Assembly (NCBI RefSeq): GCF_018336915.1
Contig: NZ_CP064923.1
Location: forward strand, 4,920,001-4,952,000
Length of the DNA: 32,000 nt
Direction of reading: 5' to 3'
Source: Acaryochloris marina S15
Lineage (GTDB): Bacteria; Cyanobacteriota; Cyanobacteriia; Thermosynechococcales; Thermosynechococcaceae
Part shown: positions 3,505-17,646 of the stretch, piece after piece
How the letters are laid out: the number at the start of each line of letters is the position of its first letter
Position numbering within the stretch: position 1 is the first letter of the stretch
Program-made: the position numbers and the translations under genes
Notes under the pieces: model-generated
What the model was told of the DNA's origin: nothing
The model's input: the letters and a program-made list of their open reading frames with translations, nothing else
Database searches by the model: none

Positions 3505-4239
3505 TTAGTCGATTTTGAGATCTTTTTTTAACCGCAAATCCAAATCGCGATCGGGATAGATAACGACGAGGTTGCGATCTCTGGTATCAATATCGTCATT
3601 GCGTCTATCGAAGTCATCATCTCGGCGGCGGCGATCGCCCAAAATAGTGGATAAGACATCTCGGACCCCATCAGAGGTTTTGGTGCGGCGAGAGGCAACC
3701 CGGCGGTTGGGATAAATCACCTCAGAGAAAGCATCTAGATTGTAACGACGGCCATTGGGTAACACGATCCGCTTGGCGTCATACTGAATGCCACCATCGC
3801 GAGAACGCAGACGGCCTTCAATGCGGCTATTACGCGGGATAATCACCCGGCCCGTATCGTCTGCCCGAATATCGTCATCGATATAGAGGGTGAGATCTCG
3901 ACTATCGTCTTTGCGTATCACGATGCGATCGCGATTCTTCGCCGAGGTCTGTATCGTTTGACCTTCATACAACCGACCTTTGTTAAACCGTTGAGAATCT
4001 TGTCGTTGGTCCCGCCGATCGTCAAAGCGGTCGTCATCATCGACCCGGTCATCATCCACTTTACAGAAATAGCCACTGCGCTGGCGTTTGCACTCATAGC
4101 CCCACCGTTCTGCGGCTTCTGGGAAGGAGCGCGGTCGCCGACCGGAAAACTGGGCGTGGGCCGAATCGATGCCCAGTCCTGAGCCCAGCAAGACCACAGA
4201 AGCCAGGGTTGTAGGTAAAAGTCTGATTTTAGATTTCAT
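3505..4239 (-). CDS. Secreted Asp/Arg-rich hypothetical protein
   Basis: ORF trimmed to the ATG at 4239 (MKSKIRLL...). Signal-peptide-like N-terminus ending AHAQ. Contains charged low-complexity runs (DDDRVDDDDRFDDRRDQRQD). Confidence 0.6.
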   Translation of the reverse strand: MKSKIRLLPTTLASVVLLGSGLGIDSAHAQFSGRRPRSFPEAAERWGYECKRQRSGYFCKVDDDRVDDDDRFDDRRDQRQDSQRFNKGRLYEGQTIQTSAKNRDRIVIRKDDSRDLTLYIDDDIRADDTGRVIIPRNSRIEGRLRSRDGGIQYDAKRIVLPNGRRYNLDAFSEVIYPNRRVASRRTKTSDGVRDVLSTILGDRRRRDDDFDRRNDDIDTRDRNLVVIYPDRDLDLRLKKDLKID

Positions 4240-4350
4240 AAGTATCACTGCCTTACAAGGAGTTCAGAGAGATTCAACAACCGATCGGTACATCTTCTGA
4301 CGCCCCAAAAATCTAAATAGTTTCTGGCGAGTAAGTGATTTGCCTTCTGC

Positions 4351-5739
4351 TCAGGGCGATACGGCGGTATCAGCCGCAGTGGTTTGGCGATAATAGCTGG
4401 CGACGATGGCCACCGTTAACCACCACAGAGTATTGATTTCAGGGCGATACCAAACCGTATCCACAAACCCATGAATAAGCATGCCAAGGATGGATGCAAT
4501 AGCACCCACTAACCACCAAACATCCTGGCTCTTGAGCTGACGCAGCTTGTGAAACTGCACCCAGGCTTGCTGAAAAATCAGGGCAAGCAGCCACATCAAG
4601 CTGGCGAACCCAACAACCCCAGTCTCCACCAAGGTTTCTAAATAAATCGAGTAGGCACTTAGAGCCGTGTAATTAGGTCTTTGAAATAGAGGATAAATCT
4701 TGTTAAAGGCTACGTTACCAGGTCCAATTCCCAAGATCGGACGTCTCTGGATCATGTCCTGCACCCCGGCCCACACATTGAGTCGAAAGCTATTGCTGCT
4801 ATCGTCATGGCCTGAAAAGACACTCAACGCTCGGTTGCGGAGGGGAGCCACAAATAAAATCCCCAAAGCGACCGCGCCGACAATCGTGCCGATGGTGAGG
4901 GGAAACGCCCAAATCTGCCAAAACCGGGGTAAGCGAGGCAATAACAAATACAGCGTCATCATGGCCATCACAAAAATAGCCAGGACTAAGCCAATCCAAG
5001 CCCCTCGGCAGCCCGTCCAGTACATACAGGCACAGTGAACCAGCAGCATTGTCCCGGCCAGGAGTTTAGCGCCCCAACGCTGCCAAACCACCAGGGCACA
5101 GATGCTAAAGAGGATGGCGGGTAAAATATAGGCTGCCAGCAAGTTGGGATTGCCCAAGTAACTATAGACTCTCACCTCATCGGCGGTAGTGGAGTTGGGA
5201 TCAACCCAAGTGGCTAGGGCTTCTGCCCCAAAGAATTTTTGCCGCACCCCATAAATAGACACAACGATCGCCGTATGCAGATAGACGGCGATCAGCCAGG
5301 AGCGTAATCGAGGCGACCTCACTACCCGCTCCGCCAGAACAAAAACAAACACATACAGAGTCATTTTCACCAGCCCAGAGGCTGCTGCCATCTTCACCGG
5401 CGACAGGGCCGTAGCAATGATCGTCACTCCCCAGAACAAAAACACCAGTAGATAAATCGGGGAAAATCGATGCGGTCTTAGGTCATCCGACAGGGTTAGC
5501 AACAGCCAAAAACCGCCACAAGCCATCGCTAATAATCCCGTCAGACTATTAGGGACAAAGGGAGCCAGGGCAAAAACCGCCGTTAGCAAGACTGCACCAA
5601 TTTCCTGATGCCATTGCAACAACCAGCTGCCCTGCCGCCATTGGCGGAGGAAGGCGAGCAGTCGCCAGAACAGACTGCCTTGCCGCCACTGCAGAGATTG
5701 GATATTGTTCAAGGTCAATGTCTGCCAAATGGTATTCAT
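4351..5739 (-). CDS. ictB: IctB-family membrane protein (O-antigen-ligase-like; putative inorganic-carbon transport related)
   Basis: 462 aa and polytopic. End-to-end resemblance to my recollection of Synechococcus IctB (MxxWQTLT..., VYSYLGNPNLLAAY, HDDSSNSFRLNVW, ILGIGPGNxAFNxIYPL, FVDTVWYRPExxTLWW). Confidence 0.8.
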   Translation of the reverse strand: MNTIWQTLTLNNIQSLQWRQGSLFWRLLAFLRQWRQGSWLLQWHQEIGAVLLTAVFALAPFVPNSLTGLLAMACGGFWLLLTLSDDLRPHRFSPIYLLVFLFWGVTIIATALSPVKMAAASGLVKMTLYVFVFVLAERVVRSPRLRSWLIAVYLHTAIVVSIYGVRQKFFGAEALATWVDPNSTTADEVRVYSYLGNPNLLAAYILPAILFSICALVVWQRWGAKLLAGTMLLVHCACMYWTGCRGAWIGLVLAIFVMAMMTLYLLLPRLPRFWQIWAFPLTIGTIVGAVALGILFVAPLRNRALSVFSGHDDSSNSFRLNVWAGVQDMIQRRPILGIGPGNVAFNKIYPLFQRPNYTALSAYSIYLETLVETGVVGFASLMWLLALIFQQAWVQFHKLRQLKSQDVWWLVGAIASILGMLIHGFVDTVWYRPEINTLWWLTVAIVASYYRQTTAADTAVSP

Positions 5740-5744
5740 AAGAG

Positions 5745-6428
5745 TTACTGTGTCAGACCGTTCTCCAAGGCAAAGCGTACCAGTTCTGTCCGACTATTGG
5801 TGCCTGTTTTACTAAAAAGTCGGCTCACATATTTCTCGACATTGCGGACGCTAGTTTCTAAGCGGCGGGCAATCTCTTTGTTCATCAGCCCTACGGCAAC
5901 CAGATCTAAGACACTCTGTTCGCGAGGGGTAAAGTCAATTTTGATCGTGGGGGTATTTTGGGTAGGCAAAGGGGCACGGTTCATTAGAATGGCCCGAATT
6001 TCAGCTACCTGATTGGCTAAATCGGCAATATCGGTAGTCGCATTGGCGTCTTTGGCTTCTTTGCGGGTCAGCAGATTGGTGACAATGGCAACGAGTTCGT
6101 CCGGGTCAAAGGGCTTGGAGAGATAGGCATCCACCCCGGCGTTATAGCCTTCAATCCGGTCCTTGGTCATGCCTCGGGCCGTTAAAAACACGATAGGCAA
6201 TCGCATAAACCGCGCATCTTCCCGCAGTTGGGCCAGAAATTGATAGCCATCGACTTCAGGCATCATAATGTCAGAAATCACCAGGTCGGGAATTCGCTGC
6301 TGCAGCAAGTCCCATCCGGCTTTGGCATTACTGGCAACATCAACGGTAAAGCCGCTGTCTTCGAGGTAGGCTTGCACGGCTTCTCGCAATCCTGGCTCAT
6401 CGTCTACCAATAATAAATGCCCGGTCAT
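5745..6428 (-). CDS. Two-component response regulator, REC + LuxR/NarL-type HTH
   Basis: REC motifs LLVDDEP, DLVISDIMMP and KPF. C-terminal LTPREQSVLDLVAVGLMNKEIARRLETSVRNVEKYVSRLFSK. The stop is 5 nt upstream of the ictB ATG, so the two are probably one operon. Confidence 0.9.
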   Translation of the reverse strand: MTGHLLLVDDEPGLREAVQAYLEDSGFTVDVASNAKAGWDLLQQRIPDLVISDIMMPEVDGYQFLAQLREDARFMRLPIVFLTARGMTKDRIEGYNAGVDAYLSKPFDPDELVAIVTNLLTRKEAKDANATTDIADLANQVAEIRAILMNRAPLPTQNTPTIKIDFTPREQSVLDLVAVGLMNKEIARRLETSVRNVEKYVSRLFSKTGTNSRTELVRFALENGLTQ

Positions 6429-6518
6429 AGAATTTCCGTCAATGAGTACTACTAGCTTCAGTTTACCGCCCGAATCTGTCAGTATGAGGGATGAATTGCC
6501 GAATGAGGGATTGAGCCG

Positions 6519-6923
6519 ATGCGGTTAGAGTTTGTGCCAGTGGAAGAGTTTTACTTTGCGATTACGCTCTGTGTGCGGGTGCTGACGGAGATTGAGAATC
6601 CTGAATTGGTGGCTCAAATGCAGGAGAAGTTGGCGACCACGTTGGGACAGTCTTCGACGGTGGCATCGGCTCAGCAGAACAGTTTTAATTATGTATTCAG
6701 GGTGTATGAGGTGGATTGTACCCCGGCGGAGGAGTTGATTGTTTCAATTTCGGATTGGGGAGAGGCACTGCGGTTGAATAGTGATTTTGGCTGGATGTTG
6801 GATGAGAATCGCAAGCCTAAGCGGACGGAGAAGTTTGGCCAGCGGGATGAGTTTTTGCAGCAGTTGAAGGCTAAGTTGCAAGAGGAGTTTCAGGTCATAT
6901 TAAATGAGCCGACTCCAACCTAG
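6519..6923 (+). CDS. Hypothetical protein (134 aa), probably co-transcribed with the Roco gene
   Basis: ATG preceded by GAGGGA. The stop lies 13 nt before the Roco ATG. No motif recognised. Confidence 0.55.
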   Translation: MRLEFVPVEEFYFAITLCVRVLTEIENPELVAQMQEKLATTLGQSSTVASAQQNSFNYVFRVYEVDCTPAEELIVSISDWGEALRLNSDFGWMLDENRKPKRTEKFGQRDEFLQQLKAKLQEEFQVILNEPTPT

Positions 6924-6936
6924 AACAGAGTAAGTT

Positions 6937-9900
6937 ATGGAGCCTTTTTGCATGGACTCGGTAACACTGATGTGCCAAATTGAGCAAGCTAAGCAAACTG
7001 GTGAGCTATACCTCAACAATAAGCAACTGACGCATGTGCCGCCAGAATTGACACAACTCAAAAACTTAACTCTCCTATCTCTCAGCGATAACAATCTGAC
7101 GAGTGTGCCACCAGAATTGGCACAACTTAAAAACTTGACAGCGCTAGATCTAAGTAAGAATCAACTGACGCATTTTCCACCAGAATTAGAACAACTCAAA
7201 AACTTAACTCTGCTGTACTTGAGCGATAACCAGCTTACAAGTTTGCCTGCAGAATTGGCACAACTACAAAACCTAAAGGAGCTAGACCTCCGCTCTAACA
7301 ATCTGGCGAGTGTGCCACCAGAATTGGCACAACTACAAAACTTGAAGGAGCTATACCTCAGTGCTAACCAGCTCACAAGTTTGCCTGCAGAATTGGCACA
7401 ACTACAAAACTTGAAGGAGCTATACCTCAGTGCTAACCAGCTCACAAGTCTGCCCGCAGAAGTGGCTCAGCTACAAAATTTAACTCTCCTATCCCTCAGT
7501 TCTAACAAGCTCACAAGTTTGCCTGCAGAATTGGCACAACTCAAAAACTTAACAGCGCTATCCCTACGCGACAACAAGCTCACAAGTGTGCCTGCAGAAT
7601 TGGCACAACTCAAAAACTTAAAAGAGCTTTACCTCCGTTCTAACCAGCTCACAAGTCTGCCCGCAGAATTGGCTCAGCTAACCAACTTGACTTTGCTATC
7701 CCTCAGCAACAACCAATTAATGCGTGTGCCCTCAGAATTAGCACAACTCAAAAACTTAGAAGAGTTACATCTCAGCGGCAACCATCTACTAGATATTCCT
7801 CTGGAATTAGCACAACTGACAAACTTGACGTGGTTATATCTCCGTTCCAACCAACTGACAAGTGTGCCTCCGGAATTAGCACAACTCAAAAACTTGAAGG
7901 AACTAGACCTCCGTGATAACCAACTATCAAATATCTCGCCAGAGATTTTGGCTCAAGGACCTGCAGCTATTTTGGGGCATTTGCGAGCACAACTCAAAGC
8001 AGGCCAACCTCAATGGATCTCTAAGCTACTCGTTGTCGGAGAGGGTGGGGTAGGCAAAACATCTCTCATACGAGCGTTACGCAACGAACTCTTTGATGTA
8101 GCTGAGTCCACAACCCACGGTATTGATATCCAAACTTTGGAACTCCAACATTGCCAAAAACCTGGAGTCACAATGCAACTCAATAGCTGGGATTTTGGCG
8201 GTCAGGAGATTTACCATGCGACCCACCAATTTTTTCTCACCAATCGCTCTTTATTTGTTGTGGTGTGGAATGCTCGTTTGGGTTTTGAACAAGGCAAGCT
8301 TAGCTACTGGCTCAAAACAATTCGAGCCAATGCTCCCGAATCCCCTATCTTGATTGTTGCCTCCCATATCGACGAGCGGTTTGCTGACCTACCTTTTAGT
8401 GAATTCAAACAACAGTTTCCACAAATCGTTGGTCAATATACCATCAGCAATAAAGATGGACAAGGCATTCCAGAACTTCGCCAGGCTATCACCAATGCAG
8501 CAGCAGACCTCCCTCTAATGGGTGAAATCTGGCCTGAAAATTGGCTGCAAGCTGCTACTGTAATTCGCAATTTACCGAAGGATCAAAAATGTATCTCTCC
8601 CCATCAGCTTTGGCAACGAATGACTGAGAAACATGTCACGCAAGAGCATCACGCCATACTGGCCCAATGGCTGCATGAGTTAGGTGACATCCTTTTCTTT
8701 GTAGATAGCGAAGACCTCAATGACTTAGTGATCCTCAAGCCCCAATGGGTAACTGAGTACATCAGCAAGGTCTTAGAAGCAGAGGGTGTCATTAACAATC
8801 AAGGTATCTTTACCCGCCAGTGCATGGATCAAATTTGGTCCGATCTAGAGTTGTCTTTGCACATCCATTTTCTCCGCCTCATGGAGCGGTTTGATCTGTC
8901 TTATCGCACCCTTGAAAATAAAGACATTAGCTTAGTTGTAGAGCGCCTTGCCTTTGAGCCTTCTGCCTACCAAGAACTATGGGAAAAACCCACCCAAACA
9001 GAACCCTGCAAGCAACTCTCCATGAAGTTTCAACTCAGTGAGATCTTGCCCGGTATTCCCACTTGGTTTATTGCCCGTCAGCATCGCTTCACAACCGGGA
9101 ACCACTGGCGCACAGGTGTTCTACTAGCTGATAGCCCGGCACACAAGCACTTGGGCTTAGTCAAAATTGGCCGCGATCCTTCTACCAACGTGGAATTTTT
9201 AGAGCTAACGGTGCGTGGTCCCATGCCCCACAATTTCTTTGACCTCCTCAAAGAAGGTATAGAAGTCACCCTTAACCGCTATCCTGGCCTCAAAGTAACC
9301 CGATTGATTCCCTGCCCAGATCCTAACCAAGAACCTTGCTTCCACGAGTTTGACTATGCCAACCTGATTAAGCGCCTTGAGCGCAAGCAGCCCAAAAATC
9401 ATATTGAATGCCCCAACTGCCTAGAAAATATCTACGTCCCCCAACTGCTCTTTGGTCTCCACCCCACCACCGAAGCCGCAGTCTTCCGGAAAATTGACGA
9501 ACTCAACCAAACCACTCAAGCAGGTTTTTCCGACATGCAATCGGGCTTTTCCGAATTGCGCGAACTCCTCCAGCGCGAATTCCTCCGCCAATTTCGCCGC
9601 GACCAACAATTCCCCGAATCCCAATGCCCTAACGTCTTCGCTTTACGTCCTGATGATCGGGGTATGTGGACCAAAGATCTTGATCAAACCCGCATCAACC
9701 TCCAGCTCTACTGCCAAGCTCCTGGTCAGTGGCATCCCACCAATACTCCCGAACAACCCAAAAACGGTCTATACACCATTGATGTTCCTAAAAAGTGGTT
9801 ACAAGCAATGGCCCCCCATATGCGACGGCTAGTGAAAGTCTTTAAATATGCGTCTCCCTTAGTCAGTCCCGTCCTAGGGAAAACCCTTCCCGATATTGCC

Positions 9901-10200
9901 GAAGCCGTCAAAGCGGATGTGGGGTTAATGAATGCCTTAGTCACCAAACTCCCAGACATTATGGACTCGCCAGAATTCCGCTGGCAGGATGATCGGCACG
10001 AAGACGAGATTGAACGACTATCGGGTTCAGCCCTTCGCTCCCTCCGCCATTTCCTAGACGAAAAAGATCCTCAGCAACATTGGGGCGGCTTAAAACGTAT
10101 CCTCACCCCAGAAGGCGATTACCTCTGGCTTTGCGAGAAACATGCTCGGGAATATGCATCCACCTACAGCGAAGATTATCCAGAGCAGCGCGAACAGTGA
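6937..10200 (+). CDS. Roco-family protein: 14 leucine-rich repeats + Roc GTPase + COR, with a Cys4 motif and an unassigned ~260-aa C-terminal domain
   Basis: 14 x 23-aa LRRs (LxLsxNqLTSlPxELAQLkNLxx). P-loop GEGGVGKT (8038-8061). Switch II WDFGGQE (from 8188). SHID in place of NKxD. COR-like ILKPQWVTEYISKVL. CX7C-X23-CX2C at 9313-9420. The start could instead be the ATG at 6952. Confidence 0.9.
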   Translation: MEPFCMDSVTLMCQIEQAKQTGELYLNNKQLTHVPPELTQLKNLTLLSLSDNNLTSVPPELAQLKNLTALDLSKNQLTHFPPELEQLKNLTLLYLSDNQLTSLPAELAQLQNLKELDLRSNNLASVPPELAQLQNLKELYLSANQLTSLPAELAQLQNLKELYLSANQLTSLPAEVAQLQNLTLLSLSSNKLTSLPAELAQLKNLTALSLRDNKLTSVPAELAQLKNLKELYLRSNQLTSLPAELAQLTNLTLLSLSNNQLMRVPSELAQLKNLEELHLSGNHLLDIPLELAQLTNLTWLYLRSNQLTSVPPELAQLKNLKELDLRDNQLSNISPEILAQGPAAILGHLRAQLKAGQPQWISKLLVVGEGGVGKTSLIRALRNELFDVAESTTHGIDIQTLELQHCQKPGVTMQLNSWDFGGQEIYHATHQFFLTNRSLFVVVWNARLGFEQGKLSYWLKTIRANAPESPILIVASHIDERFADLPFSEFKQQFPQIVGQYTISNKDGQGIPELRQAITNAAADLPLMGEIWPENWLQAATVIRNLPKDQKCISPHQLWQRMTEKHVTQEHHAILAQWLHELGDILFFVDSEDLNDLVILKPQWVTEYISKVLEAEGVINNQGIFTRQCMDQIWSDLELSLHIHFLRLMERFDLSYRTLENKDISLVVERLAFEPSAYQELWEKPTQTEPCKQLSMKFQLSEILPGIPTWFIARQHRFTTGNHWRTGVLLADSPAHKHLGLVKIGRDPSTNVEFLELTVRGPMPHNFFDLLKEGIEVTLNRYPGLKVTRLIPCPDPNQEPCFHEFDYANLIKRLERKQPKNHIECPNCLENIYVPQLLFGLHPTTEAAVFRKIDELNQTTQAGFSDMQSGFSELRELLQREFLRQFRRDQQFPESQCPNVFALRPDDRGMWTKDLDQTRINLQLYCQAPGQWHPTNTPEQPKNGLYTIDVPKKWLQAMAPHMRRLVKVFKYASPLVSPVLGKTLPDIAEAVKADVGLMNALVTKLPDIMDSPEFRWQDDRHEDEIERLSGSALRSLRHFLDEKDPQQHWGGLKRILTPEGDYLWLCEKHAREYASTYSEDYPEQREQ
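7006..7971 (+). repeat. Tandem 69-bp coding repeats (LRR array) inside the Roco gene
   Basis: 14 in-frame 69-bp units. Units 7321-7389 and 7390-7458 are identical at 67 of 69 positions. Confidence 0.9.
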
Positions 10201-10305
10201 TAAGAGATACTGCCCTGGCATAGCCATCCTGCCAAGCTAAAGAATTAAAATTGATTAATACCGAGATTTCTGCCGTCTCTTTTGGCAACATCAGCTTTTG
10301 CACTC

Positions 10306-10460
10306 GCCCCCTAAATTCCCCATCCTGGGGGACTTTGAGCCTATATCTAGGCTAATGAATCTAGACAGTGAGATCTCTAGAGCTGCTGAGGTTCAATTCT
10401 GCCACAGATTCTGTGTGGGTCAAGCAGACAAGTCCCCCACTAGTGGGGGATTTAGGGGGC
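10306..10460. repeat. MITE-like element / long hairpin bounded by ~28-bp imperfect terminal inverted repeats
   Basis: GCCCCCTAAATTCCCCATCCTGGGGGAC (10306-10333) versus GTCCCCCACTAGTGGGGGATTTAGGGGGC (10432-10460). The outer ~14 bp and inner ~8 bp are complementary. The element is intergenic, and the 77-aa ORF over it is probably an artefact. Confidence 0.5.
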
Positions 10461-10709
10461 CATTAGTGGCGTTAAGGCTGTGGAGGATAGGAGGTAGAGC
10501 CGTGTTCAACTATATTTTCCGGTGTTATTAAGTTCGTTATCCTAAGACAATTAAGCATTCTGTAAGCTTGCCCACCCAAGACACCCTAGCAGTGACATAA
10601 GGTTTTTAGCCGGGTCTAATGCCCAAACCCACCCACAGATCAACAGCAATTGACCTCATCCTACGAACCCTTGCTTTAGTATGGTGAAGATCGTTTCCAC
10701 TGCTGACTG

Positions 10710-12014
10710 ATGGCAGTCAAAACCAAAACAAACATCACCCTCACCGAGCATCAACAGACTGCCCTGGACCAGCTCCATGCTTTTTTGGATAGTCCAGAAC
10801 GGCTGTTTGTCCTAGAAGGATATGCAGGCACAGGCAAAACCACCCTATTGCAAGCCTTCGTCTCTCAGCTAAAAGAGCGGGGAGACCGTCGAGACATTGT
10901 TTTTAGTGCCTTTACCAACAAAGCCACTAAAGTTCTAAACCAAATGGTGTCTTCTTGGGGATTGAGCGTCGAATGCCTCACCTGCTGTCAGCTTCTAGGT
11001 CTACGCCCACAGATCAATCCCGAGACAGGGGAACAAGATTTCGTCCTCGATTCAAACGAAGAAAGCTCCTTTGGAAAATTTGCCTTAGTAGTCGTTGACG
11101 AATGCTCCATGGTCAACCGCAACCTGTGGGAGCTATTGCAAACGGAACTATACGCTTTTCACCTCACCACCCAGTTATTATTCGTGGGGGACTCCGCCCA
11201 GCTGCCTCCCATTAATGAACCCACATCCCAAACCTTCCTGGAGATTCCCAACAAAGCTCAGCTGACGGAAGTCATGCGTTATGGCAACTCCATCGGAGTC
11301 TTGGCAGAATCGGTGCGCTGTCATTTAGACACCTACAAACTCCCTACCTTCCATACGGATCTCAATGAAGATAAAACCGAAGGCACCGTAATCCTCCGAC
11401 AAACTGACTGGACCCAACAGCTCCTCCGAGCCTTTACCAGTGAAAAAGGCCAGGAAGATTCTGATTATGTCCGAGCCTTGGCCTATACCAACAAACGGGT
11501 CGCCCATCTCAATCAGCAAATTCGTAACGCTATCTTTGGCAAAGAGGCTTGCCGCTTTGTCCCCGGCGAACGACTAATTGCCACGGGTCCTGTGTTTCGG
11601 CGTAAGGATGAAATCGTCATGCAAACCTCCTCCGAATGCTGGGTGGAGGATGCCTATGAGGACAGCTCCTCTGGTTGGCAGGTCTGGCGACTATTTGTGG
11701 TCACCGATGCCAACTTTGATGTCGAGGTCACCGTTCTGCATGAGTCAGAACATCAACGATTTCAAAAAGAACTCAAACGCCTAGCAGACGGCAAACAATG
11801 GCAAGATTTCTGGATCCTCAAGCAACAACGATTTGCCAACCTAAACTATAGCTACGCCTTAACCGTCCATAAGTCTCAAGGCTCTACCTTTCAGAATGTC
11901 TTCGTTGACCTCCCCAACCTAATGCGCAACAGCAATATTCGCGAACGCAACCAGCTACTTTATGTCGCCGTCACCCGATCAGCCAAAAGGCTGTTTGTAT
12001 GCAAAGCCCGCTAA
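10710..12014 (+). CDS. SF1B ATP-dependent DNA helicase, RecD/Dda-like
   Basis: Walker A GYAGTGKTTLL. Walker B VVVDECSMV. C-terminal YALTVHKSQGSTF...LLYVAVTRSAKRLFV. At 434 aa it has the size and layout of Dda-type helicases. Confidence 0.85.
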   Translation: MAVKTKTNITLTEHQQTALDQLHAFLDSPERLFVLEGYAGTGKTTLLQAFVSQLKERGDRRDIVFSAFTNKATKVLNQMVSSWGLSVECLTCCQLLGLRPQINPETGEQDFVLDSNEESSFGKFALVVVDECSMVNRNLWELLQTELYAFHLTTQLLFVGDSAQLPPINEPTSQTFLEIPNKAQLTEVMRYGNSIGVLAESVRCHLDTYKLPTFHTDLNEDKTEGTVILRQTDWTQQLLRAFTSEKGQEDSDYVRALAYTNKRVAHLNQQIRNAIFGKEACRFVPGERLIATGPVFRRKDEIVMQTSSECWVEDAYEDSSSGWQVWRLFVVTDANFDVEVTVLHESEHQRFQKELKRLADGKQWQDFWILKQQRFANLNYSYALTVHKSQGSTFQNVFVDLPNLMRNSNIRERNQLLYVAVTRSAKRLFVCKAR

Positions 12015-12037
12015 TCCATACCCAGGAAAGGTCGCAG

Positions 12038-12058
12038 AGAATATACAATTCTTTTTTT
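12038..12058 (+). terminator. Weak candidate intrinsic terminator after the helicase gene
   Basis: AGAAT (12038-12042) / ATTCT (12048-12052) with a 5-nt loop, followed by a T6 run. The stem is short and AT-rich. Confidence 0.2.
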
Positions 12059-12402
12059 AAATGTCTTTGAAACTTCTACAGAAGTTATACAAGTACAACT
12101 TGTGATTGAACACTATCTCAACCCTGGCCTTGTAATACTAATGATGTGGAGAAAAAACAAACCCCTCCAAACCCACTCTTAAACAAAGCATCATCCAGTG
12201 AACACTCCTACACTACTCACCACACAATCCCAGGCAGTCCGGATGATGACTCCAGTGATGTCCCACCCATCACACTCCCAAGAAAATACCCCGACTGCAA
12301 AAGCAATCGAGGTACGACAGACACATGATGGGAACACAACAACGTTTCAGGTAGAAGCCAAAGAAAAAGGCAACTGAAACAAAAAACAAGGAAAAGAAAA
12401 AA

Positions 12403-15400
12403 TTAAAAAGCAACAACAGGGCTAGCGTAATAGAAAGAAGAATCAGCCAAAGAAAGCTGAGAAGCGCCAGAAATTGTTGCAATTAACTCATCAGAACCAC
12501 CCACTTGACCATCTTGGTTGGTATCTAGATAAAGATTTGCGCCTTGAGCGGTAGATCCTAATACATAGTCAGCAGCAGATCCGGCGAGCTGAATCTTGTC
12601 TTCTTGGGCATTGAAGTCCGTAATCATGGCAAAGTCATTTGTACCTGCCAGTAGGTCGTCGCCATCGTTATAGAAGGCAACTGCATTACCGAGAATAAAG
12701 TGGTCTTCACCAGCACCCCCTGTAAGCCGATCTACAGATCCTTGGCCAAAGCCAGCGTTGGGATCGACACCGACTAAAATATCGTTACCCGCTCCACCGA
12801 TGAGGGTGTCATTGCCAAAGCCACCTTCTAAGATGTCATCGCCTTGGTTGCCGGATAGGCGGTCGTTTCCATTGTTGCCCAAGACAATATCGTTGCCTTC
12901 GCCACCAAACAACACGTCATGACGAATTGCAGAGACGGATTCAAATACAGTGACATCATCAAGATAACCACCTAGACTGTCATCCTTACCTGCTGCTCTA
13001 AATTCTAGAGCAGTCGTCCCGCCTTCACCCGCTTCAACTGTGTAGGTATAGGTTTTCCAGTCTTCAGTCTTGCTAACTCCAGTGATGGTGTCTAGAAGCT
13101 CTCCATTCCAGTAGACTTCAACAGGGTTACTGGTTTCAGCCACACCCGGACGAGGAGTGTAAGCAAAGGAGATTTCGTAGGTTTTTCCGGCTTCAGTGTC
13201 TAAGTTTTGCATCATGCCACTGTTGTCATGACTGTCTAGCTCAATTCGAGCTTTGCCATCATCAGCCTTGCCAAACTGCTGAACTTCAATTCCTTTGCCT
13301 TGAGTGGTTGTCCAGCCCTCAACGGAGCCAAACACACCCCAGTTACGATTGCCGAGCTGGTTCTCTTCAAAGCTACCGTTAGCGACTAAGTTGCGAGGTG
13401 CAATAATATCTTCTGCACCACCGTCAATAATGTCGTTGCCGGTGCCACCGTAAATTGTGTCGTTGCCCGTGCCACCGTTGAGGATGTCATGGCCCGCATC
13501 ACCATACATGCGGTCTGCACCTTCGTTGCCGACAATAATATCTTCGCCTTCGCCACCGTACAGCTTATCTTTACCCGCACCACCGAGGACAACATCGTTG
13601 CCCGTGCCACCGTAGATTAAGTCGCGGCCTTCGTCTCCACTTAAAACATCATGACCCGCTTCACCGTAGAGGCTATCGTTGCCTGTCCCACCAGACATCC
13701 AATAGTCGTCGCCGGCACCACCCACTAACTTGTCACGGCCTGCCTCGCCTTCAAGGATATCGTGACCGTCTTGGCCGAGGAGCGTATCATTACCTGCGCC
13801 ACCTTTGAGGACATCATGGCCTGCACCACCATCTACAAAATCGCGTCCTGCGCCACCTTCAGCATAGTCTTCGCCTGCGCCAGCATATAAGGTGTCACGA
13901 CCTTCATCGCCGAAGAGGGCGTCGTTGTCGAGGCCACCTTCAATATAGTCACGGCCCTTACCGCCACTTAAGACATCATGACCGGCTTCACCGTAAAGAC
14001 TATCGTTGCCTGTCCCACCAGACATCCAGTAGTCATCGCCAGCTCCACCCATCAATTCGTCGTGGCCTGCTTCACCTTCTAATACATCATTTCCGTCTTG
14101 GCCGAGCAGGGTGTCATTACCTGTGCCACCTTTGAGGACATCATGACCGGCTCCACCATCGATCAGGTCGCTGCCTTTGCCGCCTTCTGCATAATCGTCA
14201 CCTTCTCCAGCGAATAGGGTGTCTTTACCCTCATCACCGAAGAGGGCGTCATTGTCGAGACCACCGTCCAAGTAGTCATGGCCCTTACCACCACTTAAAA
14301 CATCATGACCCGCTTCACCATACAGACTATCGTTGCCAGTACCACCAGACATCCAGTAGTCATCACCGGCACCACCGATTAACTCATCATGGCCGGCTTC
14401 ACCTTCAATAATGTCATGACCGTCTTGACCCAGAAGAGTGTCATTGCCACTGCCACCTTTAATGTGGTCATGGCCTGCTCCACCATCGACAAGATCACTG
14501 CCCTTGCCGCCTTCAGCATAATCGTCACCTTCGCCTGCAAATAGGGTGTCTTTGCCTTCATCTCCAAAAAGTGCGTCATTATCAAGGCCACCTTCAAGGT
14601 AGTCATGGCCTTTGCCACCACTTAAGACATCATGACCGGCTTCACCGTAAAGACTATCGTTACCTGTCCCACCGGTCATCCAATAGTCATCACCAGCACC
14701 ACCCATCAATTCGTCATGGCCTGCTTCACCTTCTAGAATGTCGTGACCGTCTTGACCCAAAAGGGTGTCATTGCCGCTGCCACCTTTGATGTGATCATGG
14801 CCTGCACCGCCATCGACTAAGTCGCGACCAGTGCCACCATCTGCATAATCTTCACCTTCACCACCAAGAAGGACATCATGCCCTTGGTTCCCCTGGAGAT
14901 TGTCATTATCAGCGCCCCCGGCGAGATAGTCATTCCCTTTTCCACCCGTTAGGAAGTCATTACCAGCTTCTCCATAGAGGCTGTCATTCCCTTTTCCACC
15001 AGAGACAAAGTAGTCGTCACCCGCGCCGCCAATGAGTTTGTCATGGCCCACTTCACCTTCGATCACATCATGGCCGTCTTGCCCTAGAAGGGTATCGCTA
15101 CCGCTGCCGCCTTTGATATGGTCATGGCCTGCACCGCCGTCTACCAAATCGTTGCCAGTACCGCCGTCTGCATAGTCTTCGCCTTCTCCTGCAAATAGGG
15201 TATCTTTACCTTCATTCCCGGATAGATTATCGTTGCCAGTGCCGCCTTCGATATAGTCGTTGCCGGTGCCACCGGTCAGGTAGTCTTCACCGGCTTCTCC
15301 GTATAAGCTATCGTTGCCAGCACCACCGGAAACCCAATAGTCATTGCCTGCACCACCGATTAACTCGTCATTTCCACCTTCACCATCGATGATGTCGTGA

Positions 15401-15966
15401 CCATCTTGACCGAGGAGGGTATCGTTACCACTGCCACCCTTAATGTGGTCATGGCCGGCCCCACCGTCTACGAGGTCATGGCCTTGGCCGCCGTTGGCAT
15501 AGTCTTCATTATCGCCACCATAGAGGCTATCGTTCCCCTGGTCACCACTGAGATTATCGTTATCTGCACCGCCTGCGAGGTAGTCATGGCCAGTGCCACC
15601 GCTCATAACATCGCTATTCCCTTCACCGTAGAGGCTGTCGTTGCCTGCCCCACCGGACATCCAGTAATCGTCGCCAGCGCCACCGACTAGTTTGTCATTC
15701 CCGGCTCCGCCTTCGAGGATATCGTGGCCGTCTTGACCAAGAAGCGTATCGTGTCCACTGCCGCCTTTAATGTGGTCATGGTTGGCACCACCGTCTACTA
15801 AGTCATTGCCTTGACCGCCATCTGCAAAGTCTTCACCTTGACCAGCAAGTAGGGTGTCATCCCCTTTTTCACCGACCAGATTATCGTTACCAAGGTCTCC
15901 TAGAATCATGTCTTCTTCTAAGGAGCCGACTAATAAATCGTCATTCTCAGTTCCGAATACCTGCAT
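12403..15966 (-). CDS. Large RTX-type (hemolysin-type Ca-binding nonapeptide) repeat protein with an embedded beta-sandwich-like domain
   Basis: 1187 aa, dominated by GGxGxDxLx nonapeptides. No N-terminal signal peptide. Acidic, repeat-poor C-terminus, consistent with a type I secretion substrate. Confidence 0.9.
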   Translation of the reverse strand: MQVFGTENDDLLVGSLEEDMILGDLGNDNLVGEKGDDTLLAGQGEDFADGGQGNDLVDGGANHDHIKGGSGHDTLLGQDGHDILEGGAGNDKLVGGAGDDYWMSGGAGNDSLYGEGNSDVMSGGTGHDYLAGGADNDNLSGDQGNDSLYGGDNEDYANGGQGHDLVDGGAGHDHIKGGSGNDTLLGQDGHDIIDGEGGNDELIGGAGNDYWVSGGAGNDSLYGEAGEDYLTGGTGNDYIEGGTGNDNLSGNEGKDTLFAGEGEDYADGGTGNDLVDGGAGHDHIKGGSGSDTLLGQDGHDVIEGEVGHDKLIGGAGDDYFVSGGKGNDSLYGEAGNDFLTGGKGNDYLAGGADNDNLQGNQGHDVLLGGEGEDYADGGTGRDLVDGGAGHDHIKGGSGNDTLLGQDGHDILEGEAGHDELMGGAGDDYWMTGGTGNDSLYGEAGHDVLSGGKGHDYLEGGLDNDALFGDEGKDTLFAGEGDDYAEGGKGSDLVDGGAGHDHIKGGSGNDTLLGQDGHDIIEGEAGHDELIGGAGDDYWMSGGTGNDSLYGEAGHDVLSGGKGHDYLDGGLDNDALFGDEGKDTLFAGEGDDYAEGGKGSDLIDGGAGHDVLKGGTGNDTLLGQDGNDVLEGEAGHDELMGGAGDDYWMSGGTGNDSLYGEAGHDVLSGGKGRDYIEGGLDNDALFGDEGRDTLYAGAGEDYAEGGAGRDFVDGGAGHDVLKGGAGNDTLLGQDGHDILEGEAGRDKLVGGAGDDYWMSGGTGNDSLYGEAGHDVLSGDEGRDLIYGGTGNDVVLGGAGKDKLYGGEGEDIIVGNEGADRMYGDAGHDILNGGTGNDTIYGGTGNDIIDGGAEDIIAPRNLVANGSFEENQLGNRNWGVFGSVEGWTTTQGKGIEVQQFGKADDGKARIELDSHDNSGMMQNLDTEAGKTYEISFAYTPRPGVAETSNPVEVYWNGELLDTITGVSKTEDWKTYTYTVEAGEGGTTALEFRAAGKDDSLGGYLDDVTVFESVSAIRHDVLFGGEGNDIVLGNNGNDRLSGNQGDDILEGGFGNDTLIGGAGNDILVGVDPNAGFGQGSVDRLTGGAGEDHFILGNAVAFYNDGDDLLAGTNDFAMITDFNAQEDKIQLAGSAADYVLGSTAQGANLYLDTNQDGQVGGSDELIATISGASQLSLADSSFYYASPVVAF
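13480..15820 (-). repeat. About 7 tandem 327-bp (109-aa, 12-nonapeptide) super-repeats within the RTX gene
   Basis: The marker G(A/T)CATCCA(A/G)T recurs at 13694, 14021, 14348 and 14675, exactly 327 bp apart. The protein motif GGAGHD(H/V)(I/L)KGG(S/T/A)G recurs 7 times. The outer boundaries are approximate. Confidence 0.85.
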
Positions 15967-16249
15967 AATTTTGGCCTATCTCTCGTGTATATATTCAGGC
16001 TATTCATTGCAGTTAGCTTGAAGGTCAACAAAAATAGGCATAAGAATAACTTATGAATTGTACTTTTTAAGCGCTGTATTCTTTTACTAGAAAGGGTTCA
16101 GGTTTATTTTTATTTTCAAACAAATTTTTTTCTTTTAAGCGGTGTCATCCGTAGAATTATGAATTTTTTTTTGAGTATTGGGGGAACAAATCGTCTCAAG
16201 AGCTGCTAACTTATGGGAGTAAATCAGGCTATTTAATGCAGGTGAACTG

Positions 16250-17071
16250 ATGGGGGGCAAGAGAAAAAAAACTTGGCGACGACGCGTTTTCGAAATCTTA
16301 GAAGTGGCCGATGCCGGTGATCGAGCTAGCCAAATCTTCGATATCAGCTTGTTGGTGCTAATTTTGGCCAACTTGGTGGTGATTACCCTAGAAACGGTGG
16401 AAGGATTAACCACACAGTATCGAAGCTATTTTGAGATCTGTGAGACCGTCAGCATTACGATCTTTACGATTGAATATCTGCTACGAATCTGGTCCTGTAC
16501 GGCCTCTCCAGACTTCAAACATCCCCTATTAGGGCGAGTTAAATTTCTATTTACACCGCTCGCGTTGATTGACTTGATGGCCCTGGCACCGTTTTATTTA
16601 CCGTTACTGATTCCCATCGACATCCGGTTTATTCGCTTTATCCGACTGCTGAGAGTTTTACGGTTATTTAAGCTCAGTCGATATTTTCAGTCGTTTCAAG
16701 TCTTAGGCAATATCCTAAAGTCAAAACGAGATGAGTTATTAGTCACCCTGATGGGGGTTTTAGGCTTACTATGGCTGGCCTCTACGTTGATGTACTTTAT
16801 TGAGCATGATGCTCAGCCTGAGGCCTTTGCCAATATTCCAGCCACCATGTGGTGGGGGGTGGCGACTCTGACCACGGTGGGATATGGAGATATCTACCCT
16901 GTAACCACCGCCGGTCGAGTGTTAGGGAGTGTGATTTCGATTTTGGGGATTGGTTTATTTGCTTTGCCAACGGGGATTTTGGCTTCTGGATTTACGGAAG
17001 AATTAGATCGGCGAAAACAATTACCTACAAATGAATCCAGCACTTGTCCACATTGTGGAAAACTTTTATAG
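16250..17071 (+). CDS. Voltage-gated (6-TM, KvAP-like) potassium channel
   Basis: S4 segment IRFIRFIRLLRVLRLFKLSRY. Pore and selectivity filter WWGVATLTTVGYGD (16871-16891). AGGTGA lies upstream of the ATG. Confidence 0.9.
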   Translation: MGGKRKKTWRRRVFEILEVADAGDRASQIFDISLLVLILANLVVITLETVEGLTTQYRSYFEICETVSITIFTIEYLLRIWSCTASPDFKHPLLGRVKFLFTPLALIDLMALAPFYLPLLIPIDIRFIRFIRLLRVLRLFKLSRYFQSFQVLGNILKSKRDELLVTLMGVLGLLWLASTLMYFIEHDAQPEAFANIPATMWWGVATLTTVGYGDIYPVTTAGRVLGSVISILGIGLFALPTGILASGFTEELDRRKQLPTNESSTCPHCGKLL

Positions 17072-17121
17072 GACCATTTTTCTCACTCTCTTCCAGATTG
17101 AGCCAGGAAACCCTAAAAAAA

Positions 17122-17445: not shown

Positions 17446-17646
17446 GGGATCTTAACTGATCTGCCGATGGTCTCACCCTCTGAAAGATATGTTGAGCTGA
17501 ATCTATACATGGTTCGGACAATGTGGGTGTGCTAGCGTGGAAGCTCCGTTTGCGGGACTTGAGTGCGACTTCCGAACTCCATCTTGAAAATGGCGCAAGT
17601 CTGTCGTGCCACTACTCCCCAAGCGGGCTGATTTATATCTAAGACA

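What the first reader, a model, noticed from the sequence alone, without database searches (positions are those of the whole stretch)
6519..10200. Bacterial Roco (LRR-Roc-COR) GTPase with a Cys4 motif and an unassigned ~260-aa C-terminal module, preceded by a small unknown gene
- LRR, Roc and COR account for roughly residues 24-790.
- After that comes CX7C-X23-CX2C (9313-9420; zinc-ribbon-like) and then ~260 aa (9421-10197) with no motif I recognise. Part of that sequence reads QCPNVFALRPDD...INLQLYCQAPGQWHP...VPKKWLQAMAPHMRRLVKVFKY.
- Prokaryotic Roco proteins are poorly understood, and multidomain signalling NTPases with repeat sensors are a recurring design in conflict and immunity systems.
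- The gene sits in an accessory-looking stretch: a MITE-like element, an orphan Dda-like helicase and a giant RTX protein follow it. By eye the stretch has no HIP1 copies.
- A 134-aa unknown gene ends 13 nt upstream and may be a partner.
Basis: partly seen in the sequence, partly recalled or inferred. Interest (0 to 1): 0.65.

Follow-up and report, generated by a model that had tools for sequence, protein, structure and literature searches.

The report
Bacterial Roco GTPase with unannotated C-terminal domain
This cyanobacterial gene encodes a bacterial relative of the Parkinson's protein LRRK2, and its last 250 residues form a widespread, unnamed, probably zinc-binding domain in the position where related proteins carry immune 'killer' domains; the small gene upstream is unrelated.

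Summary
The ORFs, coordinates, motifs and quoted peptides are all present. The 1087-aa protein is a complete LRR-Roc-COR-A-COR-B (Roco) GTPase.

- **One boundary correction.** COR-B runs to about residue 838, so the Cys motif (793-828) lies inside COR-B. It is conserved as Cys3 plus a swappable fourth ligand, which points to a zinc site.
- **C-terminal module.** Residues about 841-1087 are not extended COR-B. They give a confident AlphaFold model with no match in PDB, BFVD, Pfam, NCBIfam, PHROGs or PADLOC. The profile finds 1924 cluster representatives. Among the long representatives scanned, the module almost always follows COR-B at the extreme C-terminus.
- **Effector slot.** In a sister Roco clade the same position holds TIR, TCAD2 or transmembrane tails, swapped between proteins 88% identical in Roc-COR-A.
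- **Prior work.** Kaur et al. 2021 predicted LRR-AP-GTPase-COR-effector counter-invader proteins. They list a probable Acaryochloris orthologue of this gene with no C-terminal domain assigned.
- **134-aa gene.** It is a conserved cyanobacterial backbone gene, not a partner.
- **Defence context.** Association with defence islands is weak.

Verdict: a new variant of a known, predicted kind, of moderate interest. The module's activity is unknown.

The parts
6937..10200 (+). Roco gene: LRR-Roc-COR-A-COR-B plus the C-terminal module. It is 1087 aa from the first ATG; public annotation starts at 6952 (1082 aa).
   Evidence: ORF list; Pfam domains; exact-sequence look-up finds the 1082-aa form in NCBI on a 5.88-Mb contig.
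7006..7986 (+). LRR domain: at least 13 repeats of 23 aa (69-nt period). Presumed sensor or protein-binding part.
   Evidence: LRR_8 E 9e-58; 69-nt direct repeat family from 7006 to 7995; 13 strict LxxLxxLxLxxNxL matches spaced exactly 23 residues apart.
8023..8373 (+). Roc GTPase domain. P-loop GEGGVGKTS (8038-8064), switch II DFGGQ (8191-8205), G4 variant SHID (8362-8373).
   Evidence: Pfam Roc E 7e-27; phmmer hits to MbRoco2 4wnr (3.7e-41), CtRoco (~1e-33) and LRRK2 (~1e-25); motif positions.
8533..8940 (+). COR-A domain.
   Evidence: Pfam PF16095, E 4e-32, residues 533-668.
9007..9450 (+). COR-B domain, residues 691-838.
   Evidence: Pfam PF25497, E 2e-21, profile positions 1-143 of 145. 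Foldseek aligns about 150 columns of the model to CtRoco COR (3dpt, 6hlu; E ~1e-6) and LRRK2.
9313..9420 (+). Cys cluster inside COR-B: C793-x7-C801-x-H803 ... C825-x2-C828. Putative zinc site in the segment that corresponds by position to the CtRoco dimerisation element.
   Evidence: C793, C801 and C825 conserved in 36/37, 37/37 and 45/46 homologues. The fourth ligand is either H796 or C828: 0 of 27 sequences with H796 have C828, against 5 of 9 without it. CtRoco has IPLPG where this protein has IPCPD.
9457..9612 (+). Long helical linker (residues 841-892), the least conserved segment.
   Evidence: AlphaFold2 predicts one helix (model residues 4-46) when the module is modelled alone, and two helices when it is modelled with COR-B. 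Mean pairwise identity is 37%.
9613..10170 (+). Core of the C-terminal module (residues 893-1078), a compact alpha/beta domain. Motifs: CPNVFALRP, LQLYCQAPGQWHP, LRxLRxxLDEKD, TPEGxYLWLCxxHAxEY. It carries a second conserved Cys/His cluster: C897, C926, H933, C1066, H1069.
   Evidence: Model of the module alone has pLDDT 85 and pTM 0.79. No structural match: PDB best E 1.3, BFVD best E 0.34. The profile finds 1924 representatives at E<=1e-3. Conservation is 96-100% for the five Cys/His residues.
6519..6923 (+). Upstream 134-aa gene. It is a neighbour, not part of the system: a conserved cyanobacterial gene of unknown function.
   Evidence: More than 200 homologue clusters across cyanobacteria. 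It is present without an adjacent Roco gene in Fischerella PCC 9605 and in Acaryochloris-like contigs with the same Wzy_C / response-regulator synteny.

Best explanation
The gene encodes a single-polypeptide switch protein built like an NLR, belonging to the Roco (Roc-COR, 'AP-GTPase') family.

**Shown from sequence and models**
- The protein has at least 13 N-terminal LRRs.
- The Roc G domain is intact, and COR-A and COR-B follow it.
- A conserved Cys3 + His/Cys cluster lies in the last part of COR-B.
- A ~45-residue helix follows COR-B.
- A ~190-residue alpha/beta domain with no detectable fold relative comes last, carrying a second conserved Cys/His cluster.

**Inferred mechanism**
- The LRRs bind a protein ligand.
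- Roc-COR runs the GTP-driven dimer-to-monomer cycle described for C. tepidum Roco.
- The two Cys/His clusters bind zinc and stiffen the COR-B dimerisation segment and the module.
- The C-terminal module is the output (effector) domain that the switch exposes or activates.

This position is an effector slot in bacterial Roco proteins: sister-clade members carry TIR, TCAD2 or transmembrane tails there. The most likely biological role is therefore counter-invader or regulated cell-death signalling, as Kaur et al. 2021 predicted for LRR-AP-GTPase-COR-effector proteins. The module's biochemical activity is unknown. The gene acts alone; the 134-aa upstream gene and the downstream helicase are not partners.
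For: - **Domains and motifs:**
- **Module is autonomous:** it gives a confident model on its own, COR-B structures cover only the first ~150 residues of the 691-1087 model, and it also occurs directly after LRRs without Roc-COR (P0201, P0373).
- **Large conserved family:** 1924 representatives. Of 49 long members, 47 have COR-B, 46 COR-A, 44 Roc and 37 LRR. The module core is 49% identical on average across phyla, similar to COR-A at 53%.
- **Metal sites:** near-invariant Cys/His residues, and the mutually exclusive H796/C828 fourth ligand.
- **Effector slot:** in 80 metagenome loci found with a Roc-COR-A profile, the module tracks one clade. The sister clade has TIR_2 (4 loci, E down to 1e-30), TCAD2 (2), transmembrane tails (7) and other tails. 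L169 (TIR) and L163 (TCAD2) are 88% identical over Roc-COR-A and 87-98% identical in most 40-column windows across Roc-COR. They fall below 30% in the C-terminal tail after COR-B.
- **Literature:** Kaur et al. 2021 describe the architecture with at least 24 C-terminal domains. They list WP_010471910.1 (1082 aa, context '<-REC ?->') as LRR+AP-GTPase+COR only; length and context match this gene, but the sequences were not compared.
- **Accessory character:** the gene is absent at the syntenic site in a relative with 75% DNA identity, the stretch is HIP1-free, decayed or split copies are frequent, and proteins from different phyla share 50-65% identity.
Against: - No PADLOC model matches the protein.
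- Neighbours of 49 diverse homologues are mostly housekeeping, with only a few defence hits (one Septu pair, MzaA and a few candidate systems).
- In Nostoc the locus is stably syntenic next to an amidase and riboflavin genes, which fits a resident signalling gene better than a mobile defence gene.
- There are no homologues on PLSDB plasmids or INPHARED phages.
- Within its own clade the module is never swapped, and it has no recognisable catalytic signature.
- Standalone COR-B+module ORFs fit a dimerisation role as well as an effector role.
- Zinc binding, GTPase activity and any phenotype are untested.
Confidence: 0.5

Rival explanations
1. The protein is a housekeeping signalling GTPase. The C-terminal module is a zinc-stabilised dimerisation or regulatory extension of COR-B (or a docking platform), not an effector, and the protein regulates a cellular process in bacteria with complex lifestyles rather than defence.
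For: - Synteny is stable and vertical across about 20 Nostoc species, next to housekeeping genes.
- Flanking genes are mostly metabolic, with few PADLOC hits.
- The module is invariant within its clade.
- pTM of 0.85 for COR-B plus module suggests one rigid unit.
- Standalone ORFs start exactly at the beginning of COR-B and end with the module. One of them lies directly upstream of a Roc-COR-module gene in Entotheonella.
- The Cys cluster lies in the segment that is the dimer interface in CtRoco.
Against: - The module also follows LRRs directly, without any COR.
- In the sister clade the same position holds TIR, TCAD2 and transmembrane tails that are swapped like cassettes.
- Conserved polar residues (R1034, R1037, D1044, E1059) go beyond what a structural zinc site needs.
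- The gene varies between strains in Acaryochloris and is often decayed elsewhere.
Confidence: 0.3
2. The 134-aa gene and the Roco gene form a two-gene system, either sensor plus partner or toxin-antitoxin-like.
For: The genes are on the same strand, 13 nt apart (28 nt with the annotated start), and no promoter-like or terminator-like site was found between them on the + strand.
Against: - The 134-aa family is far more widespread in cyanobacteria than the Roco module. The single-sequence search with the same tool returned 204 clusters for it, against 17 for the module.
- It is present without a Roco gene in Fischerella and in Acaryochloris-like contigs where an acetyltransferase follows it.
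- No conserved neighbour gene accompanies module-bearing Roco genes across phyla.
Confidence: 0.03
3. The C-terminal region is just an extended COR-B domain.
For: It directly follows COR-B, and the two together give a single confident model.
Against: - Foldseek aligns only about 150 columns (COR-B proper) to the CtRoco and LRRK2 structures.
- The module alone models confidently and matches nothing in the PDB.
- A profile of the module does not hit full-length CtRoco in the PDB sequence set.
- The module occurs without COR.
Confidence: 0.03

Closest known systems
Prokaryotic LRR-AP-GTPase-COR-effector 'counter-invader' proteins predicted by Kaur, Iyer, Burroughs and Aravind (eLife 2021, PMC8195603, Fig. 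6D and source data)
   Same: The core architecture is the same: variable N-terminal LRRs, the Roc ('AP-GTPase') domain, COR, and a C-terminal output position. A probable orthologue of this gene (WP_010471910.1, 1082 aa, Acaryochloris sp. CCMEE 5410, context '<-REC ?->') is in their table; length and gene context match, but I did not compare the sequences.
   Different: Their table gives this protein as LRR+AP-GTPase+COR with no C-terminal domain. The ~250-aa module is not among the effectors they name (TIR, DRHyd, caspase, trypsin, FGS, GT4, EADs). Their function is a prediction, not an experiment.
Chlorobium tepidum Roco (CtRoco; PDB 3dpu, 6hlu, 8r4b) and Methanosarcina barkeri Roco2 (4wnr)
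   Same: The LRR-Roc-COR architecture is shared. Roc-COR homology is E 1e-33 to 4e-41, and the COR-B fold matches. CtRoco supplies the mechanistic model of a GTP-driven dimer-to-monomer switch (PMC11052575).
   Different: CtRoco lacks the COR-B Cys cluster: it has IPLPG where this protein has IPCPD. Its last ~150 residues are flexible and are not detectably related to this module. The G4 motif here is SHID (family consensus THxD), not NKID.
Human LRRK2 and DAPK1 (Roco proteins with C-terminal kinase/WD40 or death domains)
   Same: Roc-COR homology is E ~1e-25. From my own recollection, not checked here, the G4 motif resembles LRRK2's THLD. An output domain follows COR.
   Different: There is no kinase, WD40, ankyrin or death domain here. 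The output domain is an unrelated module rich in conserved Cys and His.
Sister-clade bacterial Roco proteins with TIR, TCAD2 or transmembrane tails (loci L163, L166, L169, L172-L175 and others)
   Same: They share LRR-Roc-COR-A-COR-B, with 33-45% identity in Roc-COR-A, and the tail begins right after COR-B.
   Different: Their tails are known conflict-system domains and are exchanged between near-identical cores. The window's clade carries one fixed, uncharacterised module.
Bacterial STAND/NLR-like antiviral proteins (Avs, bNACHT)
   Same: The logic is the same: a repeat sensor, an NTPase switch and an effector in one polypeptide. This rests on general knowledge and on the titles and abstracts returned by the literature search.
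   Different: The switch here is a Ras-like GTPase with COR, not a STAND ATPase. The domain order is reversed, with the sensor at the N-terminus and the output at the C-terminus. No PADLOC model matches.

Membership tests
Roco (Roc-COR) GTPases | Ras-like Roc G domain with intact nucleotide-binding motifs | tested here: met
   Pfam Roc E 7e-27. P-loop GEGGVGKTS, switch II DFGGQ and G4 SHID are present. Homology to MbRoco2, CtRoco and LRRK2 Roc.
Roco (Roc-COR) GTPases | COR-A and COR-B immediately C-terminal to Roc | tested here: met
   COR-A E 4e-32 and COR-B E 2e-21. The COR-B model matches 3dpt, 6hlu and LRRK2 by Foldseek.
Roco (Roc-COR) GTPases | GTP binding and hydrolysis coupled to a dimer/monomer cycle | not testable with these tools
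   Needs biochemistry; inferred from CtRoco (PMC11052575).
Prokaryotic AP-GTPase counter-invader proteins (Kaur et al. 2021) | N-terminal LRRs + AP-GTPase + COR core | tested here: met
   Domains found. A protein of the same length (1082 aa) and same gene context, WP_010471910.1, is listed with this architecture in their source data; sequence identity to the window protein was not checked.
Prokaryotic AP-GTPase counter-invader proteins (Kaur et al. 2021) | A recognisable effector or effector-associated domain in the C-terminal position | tested here: inconclusive
   A discrete domain occupies the position, but it matches no known effector. The position holds TIR, TCAD2 or transmembrane tails in the sister clade.
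Prokaryotic AP-GTPase counter-invader proteins (Kaur et al. 2021) | Fast-evolving sensor repeats relative to the NTPase core | tested here: inconclusive
   In the module-bearing clade, LRR identity is 49% against 64% for Roc, but repeat consensus inflates the LRR figure. Protein lengths of 850-1600 aa reflect varying repeat numbers. The contrast is clear in the sister clade: 21-64% identity in the N-terminal region against 87-98% in the core.
Prokaryotic AP-GTPase counter-invader proteins (Kaur et al. 2021) | Protection against phage or other invaders | not testable with these tools
Catalogued anti-phage defence systems (PADLOC-DB v2) | Significant match to a defence-protein model | tested here: not met
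   The best hits are E 0.045 and 0.13, on the P-loop and LRR only.
Catalogued anti-phage defence systems (PADLOC-DB v2) | Consistent co-localisation with known defence genes | tested here: not met
   Among 132 genes within +/-2 positions in 49 diverse loci, no PADLOC family matches more than 3 of them (PtuA 2, PtuB 1, MzaA 1, PDC-S05 2-3). Pfam shows mostly housekeeping functions. No background control was run.
Zinc ribbon / structural zinc site (COR-B Cys cluster) | Four Cys/His ligands in two knuckles flanked by beta-strands, conserved across the family | tested here: met
   C793, C801 and C825 are about 100% conserved. The fourth ligand is H796 or C828, never both. Strands flank the Cys residues in the model. 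The five C828 sequences may be one lineage.
Zinc ribbon / structural zinc site (COR-B Cys cluster) | Actual metal binding and tetrahedral geometry | not testable with these tools
Two-gene operon with the 134-aa protein | Co-occurrence of the two genes across genomes | tested here: not met
Extended COR-B | COR-B structures cover the C-terminal region | tested here: not met
   Only about 150 of 397 residues align (TM score normalised to the query 0.30). The module alone has no PDB match.

The most novel reading that the evidence does not exclude
The C-terminal module is a new zinc-dependent effector domain, either an enzyme or a toxic or assembly-forming executioner. It would be held inactive in the Roco dimer and released by LRR ligand sensing and GTP-driven monomerisation. 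The largest clade of bacterial Roco proteins would then be a GTPase-based, NLR-like abortive-infection or cell-death system with an effector chemistry not yet seen in prokaryotic immunity.
Probability: 0.2. Interest if true: 0.75.

Novelty: new variant of a known kind. Interest (0 to 1): 0.45.

Why it matters
- **An open question.** The physiological role of bacterial Roco proteins is unknown, even though they are the standard structural models for LRRK2. A 2019 review of the family still describes prokaryotic members as simply LRR-Roc-COR.
- **What this adds.** A large clade (about 1900 cluster representatives) carries a conserved, confidently modelled C-terminal domain that no database names. 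It has two candidate zinc sites. It sits in the position that sister-clade proteins use for TIR and other conflict-system effectors.
- **Why that helps.** Both the Roco field and the bacterial-immunity field get a concrete output domain to test: toxicity, metal content, binding partners and phage challenge.
- **Side result.** The comparison gives clear evidence of cassette swapping at the post-COR-B position, TIR against TCAD2 on cores 88% identical. That supports the 2021 computational prediction that bacterial Roco proteins are immune-type switches.

Tried and rejected
1. **Sequence libraries.** Pfam, NCBIfam, PADLOC and PHROGs were searched with the module and with the 134-aa protein, and found nothing. 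Pfam at E<=10 on 17 module sequences gave no consistent family.
2. **PDB by sequence.** phmmer with residues 691-1087 and a profile of the module gave only noise, and no hit to full-length CtRoco.
3. **Structure comparison.** Foldseek with the module against the PDB (best E 1.3) and BFVD (best E 0.34) found no fold relative. Weak hits to PHD, B-box and ribosomal zinc proteins at E 5-7 are not evidence.
4. **Plasmids and phages.** Megablast of 4000-16000 and tblastn of the module against PLSDB, plus tblastn against INPHARED, found no match.
5. **Conserved partner gene.** Clustering of +/-4 neighbours in 80 loci recovered only Nostoc-internal synteny and LRR fragments of the same or paralogous genes.
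6. **134-aa gene as partner.** Rejected.
7. **Helicase as partner.** No helicase family recurs next to homologues.
8. **Word-index protein search artefact.** It returned only proteins under 450 aa, which first suggested standalone modules. The exhaustive representative search and the genome loci showed that most hosts are full-length Roco proteins of 850-1600 aa. A few genuine standalone COR-B+module ORFs remain.
9. **Zinc-site geometry.** Model coordinates are not exposed, so it could not be measured.
10. **Second structure job.** I used it on the module rather than the 134-aa protein, so that protein has no model.
11. **Literature.** Searches for an experimental link between Roco proteins and phage defence found none.

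Full report
**1. Observation**

Public annotation uses Met6 (6952) as the start. That 1082-aa form is in NCBI on a 5.88-Mb contig. [quoted passage not shown] 'Moss Beach'.

Pfam assigns the following domains:

| Domain | Residues | E-value |
|---|---|---|
| LRR_8 | — | 9e-58 |
| Roc | 363-479 | 7e-27 |
| COR-A | 533-668 | 4e-32 |
| COR-B | 691-838 | 2e-21 |

- The LRRs are at least 13 units of exactly 23 residues, a 69-nt DNA period.
- The G-domain motifs are intact: GEGGVGKTS, DFGGQ, and a G4 variant SHID. The family consensus for G4 is THxD.
- Roc-COR is homologous to M. barkeri Roco2 (3.7e-41), C. tepidum Roco (~1e-33) and LRRK2 (~1e-25).

**2. The Cys motif belongs to COR-B**

Two results say otherwise. 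The Pfam COR-B model spans residues 691-838. A Foldseek search with a confident AlphaFold2 model of 691-1087 (pLDDT 85, pTM 0.85) aligns about 150 columns to the COR-B domains of CtRoco and LRRK2.

The motif is not a chance pattern. C793, C801 and C825 are conserved in 36/37, 37/37 and 45/46 homologues. The second Cys of the CX2C (C828) is present in only 6 of 46.

Most homologues have His at position 796 instead ('CPGH'). The two never coexist: 0 of 27 sequences with H796 have C828, against 5 of 9 without it. A swappable fourth ligand is what a real tetrahedral metal site would show. The five C828 sequences may, however, be a single lineage.

CtRoco has Leu at the first Cys position (IPLPG against IPCPD). 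The segment corresponds by position to the CtRoco COR-B C-terminal dimerisation element described in PMC11052575.

**3. The C-terminal module is a distinct, widespread, unnamed domain**

No library recognises residues about 841-1087:
- Pfam, NCBIfam, PADLOC and PHROGs give no hit.
- PDB sequences give no hit, either by phmmer or by a profile. The profile does not find full-length CtRoco.

Modelled alone with 85 aligned sequences, the module gives pLDDT 85 and pTM 0.79. The model has these elements:
- a ~43-residue helix
- a small three-stranded sheet
- three long helices
- a C-terminal beta-hairpin followed by a helix

Foldseek finds nothing significant in the PDB (best E 1.3) or BFVD (best E 0.34).

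The near-invariant residues include a second Cys/His cluster (C897, C926, H933, C1066, H1069). They also include polar residues R1034, R1037, D1044, E1059 and Y946.

Family size and architecture:
- A profile of the module finds 1924 representatives of 50%-identity clusters at E<=1e-3, and 223 at E<=1e-30.
- Of 49 long members, 47 have COR-B, 46 COR-A, 44 Roc and 37 LRR.
- In 80 genome loci the module sits at the extreme C-terminus of proteins that are mostly 850-1130 aa long.
- Exceptions show that the domain is autonomous. Two proteins are LRR+module with no Roc-COR. Standalone ORFs begin exactly at the start of COR-B. One has no Roco gene nearby, and one lies directly upstream of a Roc-COR-module gene in Entotheonella.

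Distribution is patchy: 163 hits in 185,579 species genomes. Hosts are mostly filamentous or large-genome bacteria: Nostoc and other cyanobacteria, Planctomycetota, Chloroflexota, Acidobacteriota, Parabeggiatoa, Entotheonella, KSB3 and Polyangium.

Mean pairwise identity by segment across 37 full-length proteins:

| Segment | Identity |
|---|---|
| Roc | 64% |
| COR-B | 58% |
| COR-A | 53% |
| Module core | 49% |
| LRR | 49% |
| Helical linker | 37% |

**4. The upstream gene and the neighbourhood**

The 134-aa protein has more than 200 homologue clusters across cyanobacteria. In Fischerella PCC 9605 it lies between a glycosyltransferase and an RRM protein, with no Roco gene nearby.

In an Acaryochloris-like relative (protein 82% identical, DNA 75% identical) the left-hand synteny is the same: Wzy_C, response regulator, 134-aa gene. 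An acetyltransferase follows instead of the Roco gene, and DNA similarity to the window stops at 6896. Closer relatives (81% and 94% DNA identity) do carry the LRR start, and their contigs break inside the repeats. The small gene is therefore backbone, and the Roco gene begins a strain-variable stretch.

That stretch is HIP1-free. The window has 10 HIP1 copies and none between 3933 and 18370. It also contains a Dda-like helicase and an RTX protein.

No gene family accompanies module-bearing Roco genes across phyla. The only cross-phylum cluster of neighbours is made of LRR fragments.

Among 132 genes within +/-2 positions in 49 diverse loci, only a few match PADLOC models: PtuA 2, PtuB 1, MzaA 1 and a few candidate families. 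Pfam shows mostly housekeeping functions. In Nostoc the locus is vertically syntenic next to an amidase and riboflavin genes. In another metagenome locus the gene is decayed, among transposase, XisH/XisI and restriction genes. The module is absent from PLSDB plasmids and INPHARED phages. Defence-island association is therefore weak and inconsistent.

**5. What the position after COR-B is used for**

I searched metagenome contigs with a profile of Roc-COR-A only, so the search was blind to the C-terminus. I then classified what follows COR-B.

- Complete ORFs whose Roc-COR-A is roughly 40% or more identical to the window's nearly all carry the module (38 loci).
- A sister clade (33-45% identity) has diverse tails:

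| Tail type | Loci | Evidence |
|---|---|---|
| TIR_2 | 4 | E 2.5e-8 to 1.3e-30 |
| TCAD2 (PF19971) | 2 | E 2.6e-15 |
| Hydrophobic, transmembrane-like | 7 | hydropathy window |
| 187-aa unknown domain | 3 | |
| Helical tail family | 4 | |
| Short tail (<60 aa) | 7 | |

- L169 (TIR) and L163 (TCAD2) are 88% identical over Roc-COR-A. They are 87-98% identical in most 40-column windows across Roc-COR, fall below 30% in the C-terminal tail after COR-B, and also diverge in the N-terminal repeat region.

This pattern, a conserved NTPase core with a variable sensor and a swapped C-terminal cassette, is typical of conflict systems. It shows that the position after COR-B is an output or effector slot in bacterial Roco proteins.

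**6. Literature**

- The 2019 Roco review states that all identified prokaryotic Roco proteins have only LRR-Roc-COR (PMC6337361).
- The CtRoco cryo-EM paper reports no density for its last ~150 residues (PMC11052575).
- Kaur et al. 2020 (PMC7159879) found AP-GTPase+COR in vWA ternary conflict systems.
- Kaur et al. [quoted passage not shown] These have rapidly evolving N-terminal LRRs and at least 24 different C-terminal domains: TIR, DRHyd, caspase, trypsin, FGS, GT4 and EADs.
- Their source data list WP_010471910.1, 1082 aa, Acaryochloris sp. CCMEE 5410, with the context '<-REC ?->'. Length and context match this gene, so it is probably the orthologue, although I did not compare the sequences. 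They annotate it only as LRR-repeats+AP-GTPase+COR. The general class is therefore published as a prediction, and the module is not recognised there.
- I found no experimental test of any bacterial Roco protein in defence.

**7. Mechanism**

Shown from sequence and models:
- the domain order and the intact G-domain motifs
- two conserved Cys/His clusters
- an autonomous, confidently modelled C-terminal domain
- clade-wide retention of that domain
- cassette swapping at the same slot in the sister clade

Inferred:
- The LRRs sense a protein ligand.
- Roc-COR runs the GTP-dependent dimer-to-monomer cycle of CtRoco.
- Zinc stabilises the COR-B dimerisation segment and the module.
- The module is the output that is exposed or activated, most likely in counter-invader or regulated cell-death signalling.

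I give this reading about 0.5. The main rival, at about 0.3, is a resident signalling GTPase whose module is a zinc-stabilised dimerisation or regulatory extension. Nostoc synteny, housekeeping neighbours, invariance of the module within its clade and the standalone COR-B+module ORFs support that rival. The two-gene and extended-COR-B readings are rejected.

**8. Verdict**

The protein is a member of a known and already catalogued kind. The new element is an unannotated, widespread C-terminal domain with no detectable fold relative and two putative zinc sites, occupying the effector slot: a new variant of a known kind. Interest is moderate (0.45). It gives a concrete, testable handle on the unknown function of bacterial Roco proteins, but its activity cannot be deduced here.

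Noticed in passing
window 17647-19089 and 19079-20254 (+): A 480-aa ORF with no Pfam, PHROGs or other hit overlaps by 11 nt with a 391-aa ORF that matches Pfam ARPP-2 (PF22549) at E 1.4e-115. This looks like a two-gene unit of unknown function. A literature search for ARPP-1/ARPP-2 found nothing relevant.
   Followed up: partly
window 3933-18370: This 14.4-kb stretch has no HIP1 (GCGATCGC) copy, while the rest of the window has 10 copies (0.28 expected by chance for the whole window). It covers the Roco gene, the helicase, the RTX gene and the ion-channel gene, and also the conserved backbone genes at 4351-6923.
   Followed up: partly
window 10710-12014 (+): A 434-aa SF1B helicase matches the Dda-like family phrog_325 at 4.7e-96. 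It also partly matches the PADLOC candidate family PDC-M16A (3.9e-44, N-terminal 300 residues of a 721-position profile). It is not a recurrent neighbour of Roco homologues.
   Followed up: partly
window 12403-15966 (-): A 1187-aa RTX protein has 33 HemolysinCabind stretches and a weak DUF642-like region at residues 875-1007.
   Followed up: no
window 10306-10322 / 10444-10460: A 17-nt inverted repeat (94% complementary, 121 nt apart) lies in the 510-nt gap between the Roco gene and the helicase.
   Followed up: partly
L169 vs L163, L173 and L160 (metagenome loci): These Roco proteins are 79-89% identical over Roc-COR-A but carry different C-terminal domains: TIR, TCAD2 or a helical tail. The break comes after COR-B. 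This is a clean example of effector-cassette swapping in bacterial Roco proteins.
   Followed up: yes
L003 8001-11289; L004 / L065 157-3445 (Candidatus Entotheonella): Two adjacent genes each end in the module: a 372-aa ORF made only of COR-B plus the module, directly followed by a 705-aa Roc-COR-A-COR-B-module protein without LRRs. This may be a heteromeric pair.
   Followed up: partly
L020, L024, L028, L029, L031, L032, L034, L036, L038, L092 (Nostocales), 0.1-2.5 kb upstream of the Roco gene: Arrays of a short tandem repeat read as ORFs of ...ESLIL(A/V)(D/N)ESLIL..., a period of about 7 aa (21 nt). They recur upstream of the Roco gene in ten loci. Their nature was not examined.
   Followed up: no
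L161, L162, L165 (metagenome loci), last 187 residues of the Roco ORF: A conserved 187-aa C-terminal tail with no Pfam match follows COR-B in three sister-clade Roco proteins. It is another unassigned occupant of the effector slot.
   Followed up: partly
L096 / L097 6416-8672: A decayed module-bearing Roco gene is split into Roc, COR and module fragments. It lies among a transposase, XisH/XisI, Uma2 and a type I restriction HsdR N-terminal fragment. The same contig type was seen in 15 samples.
   Followed up: no
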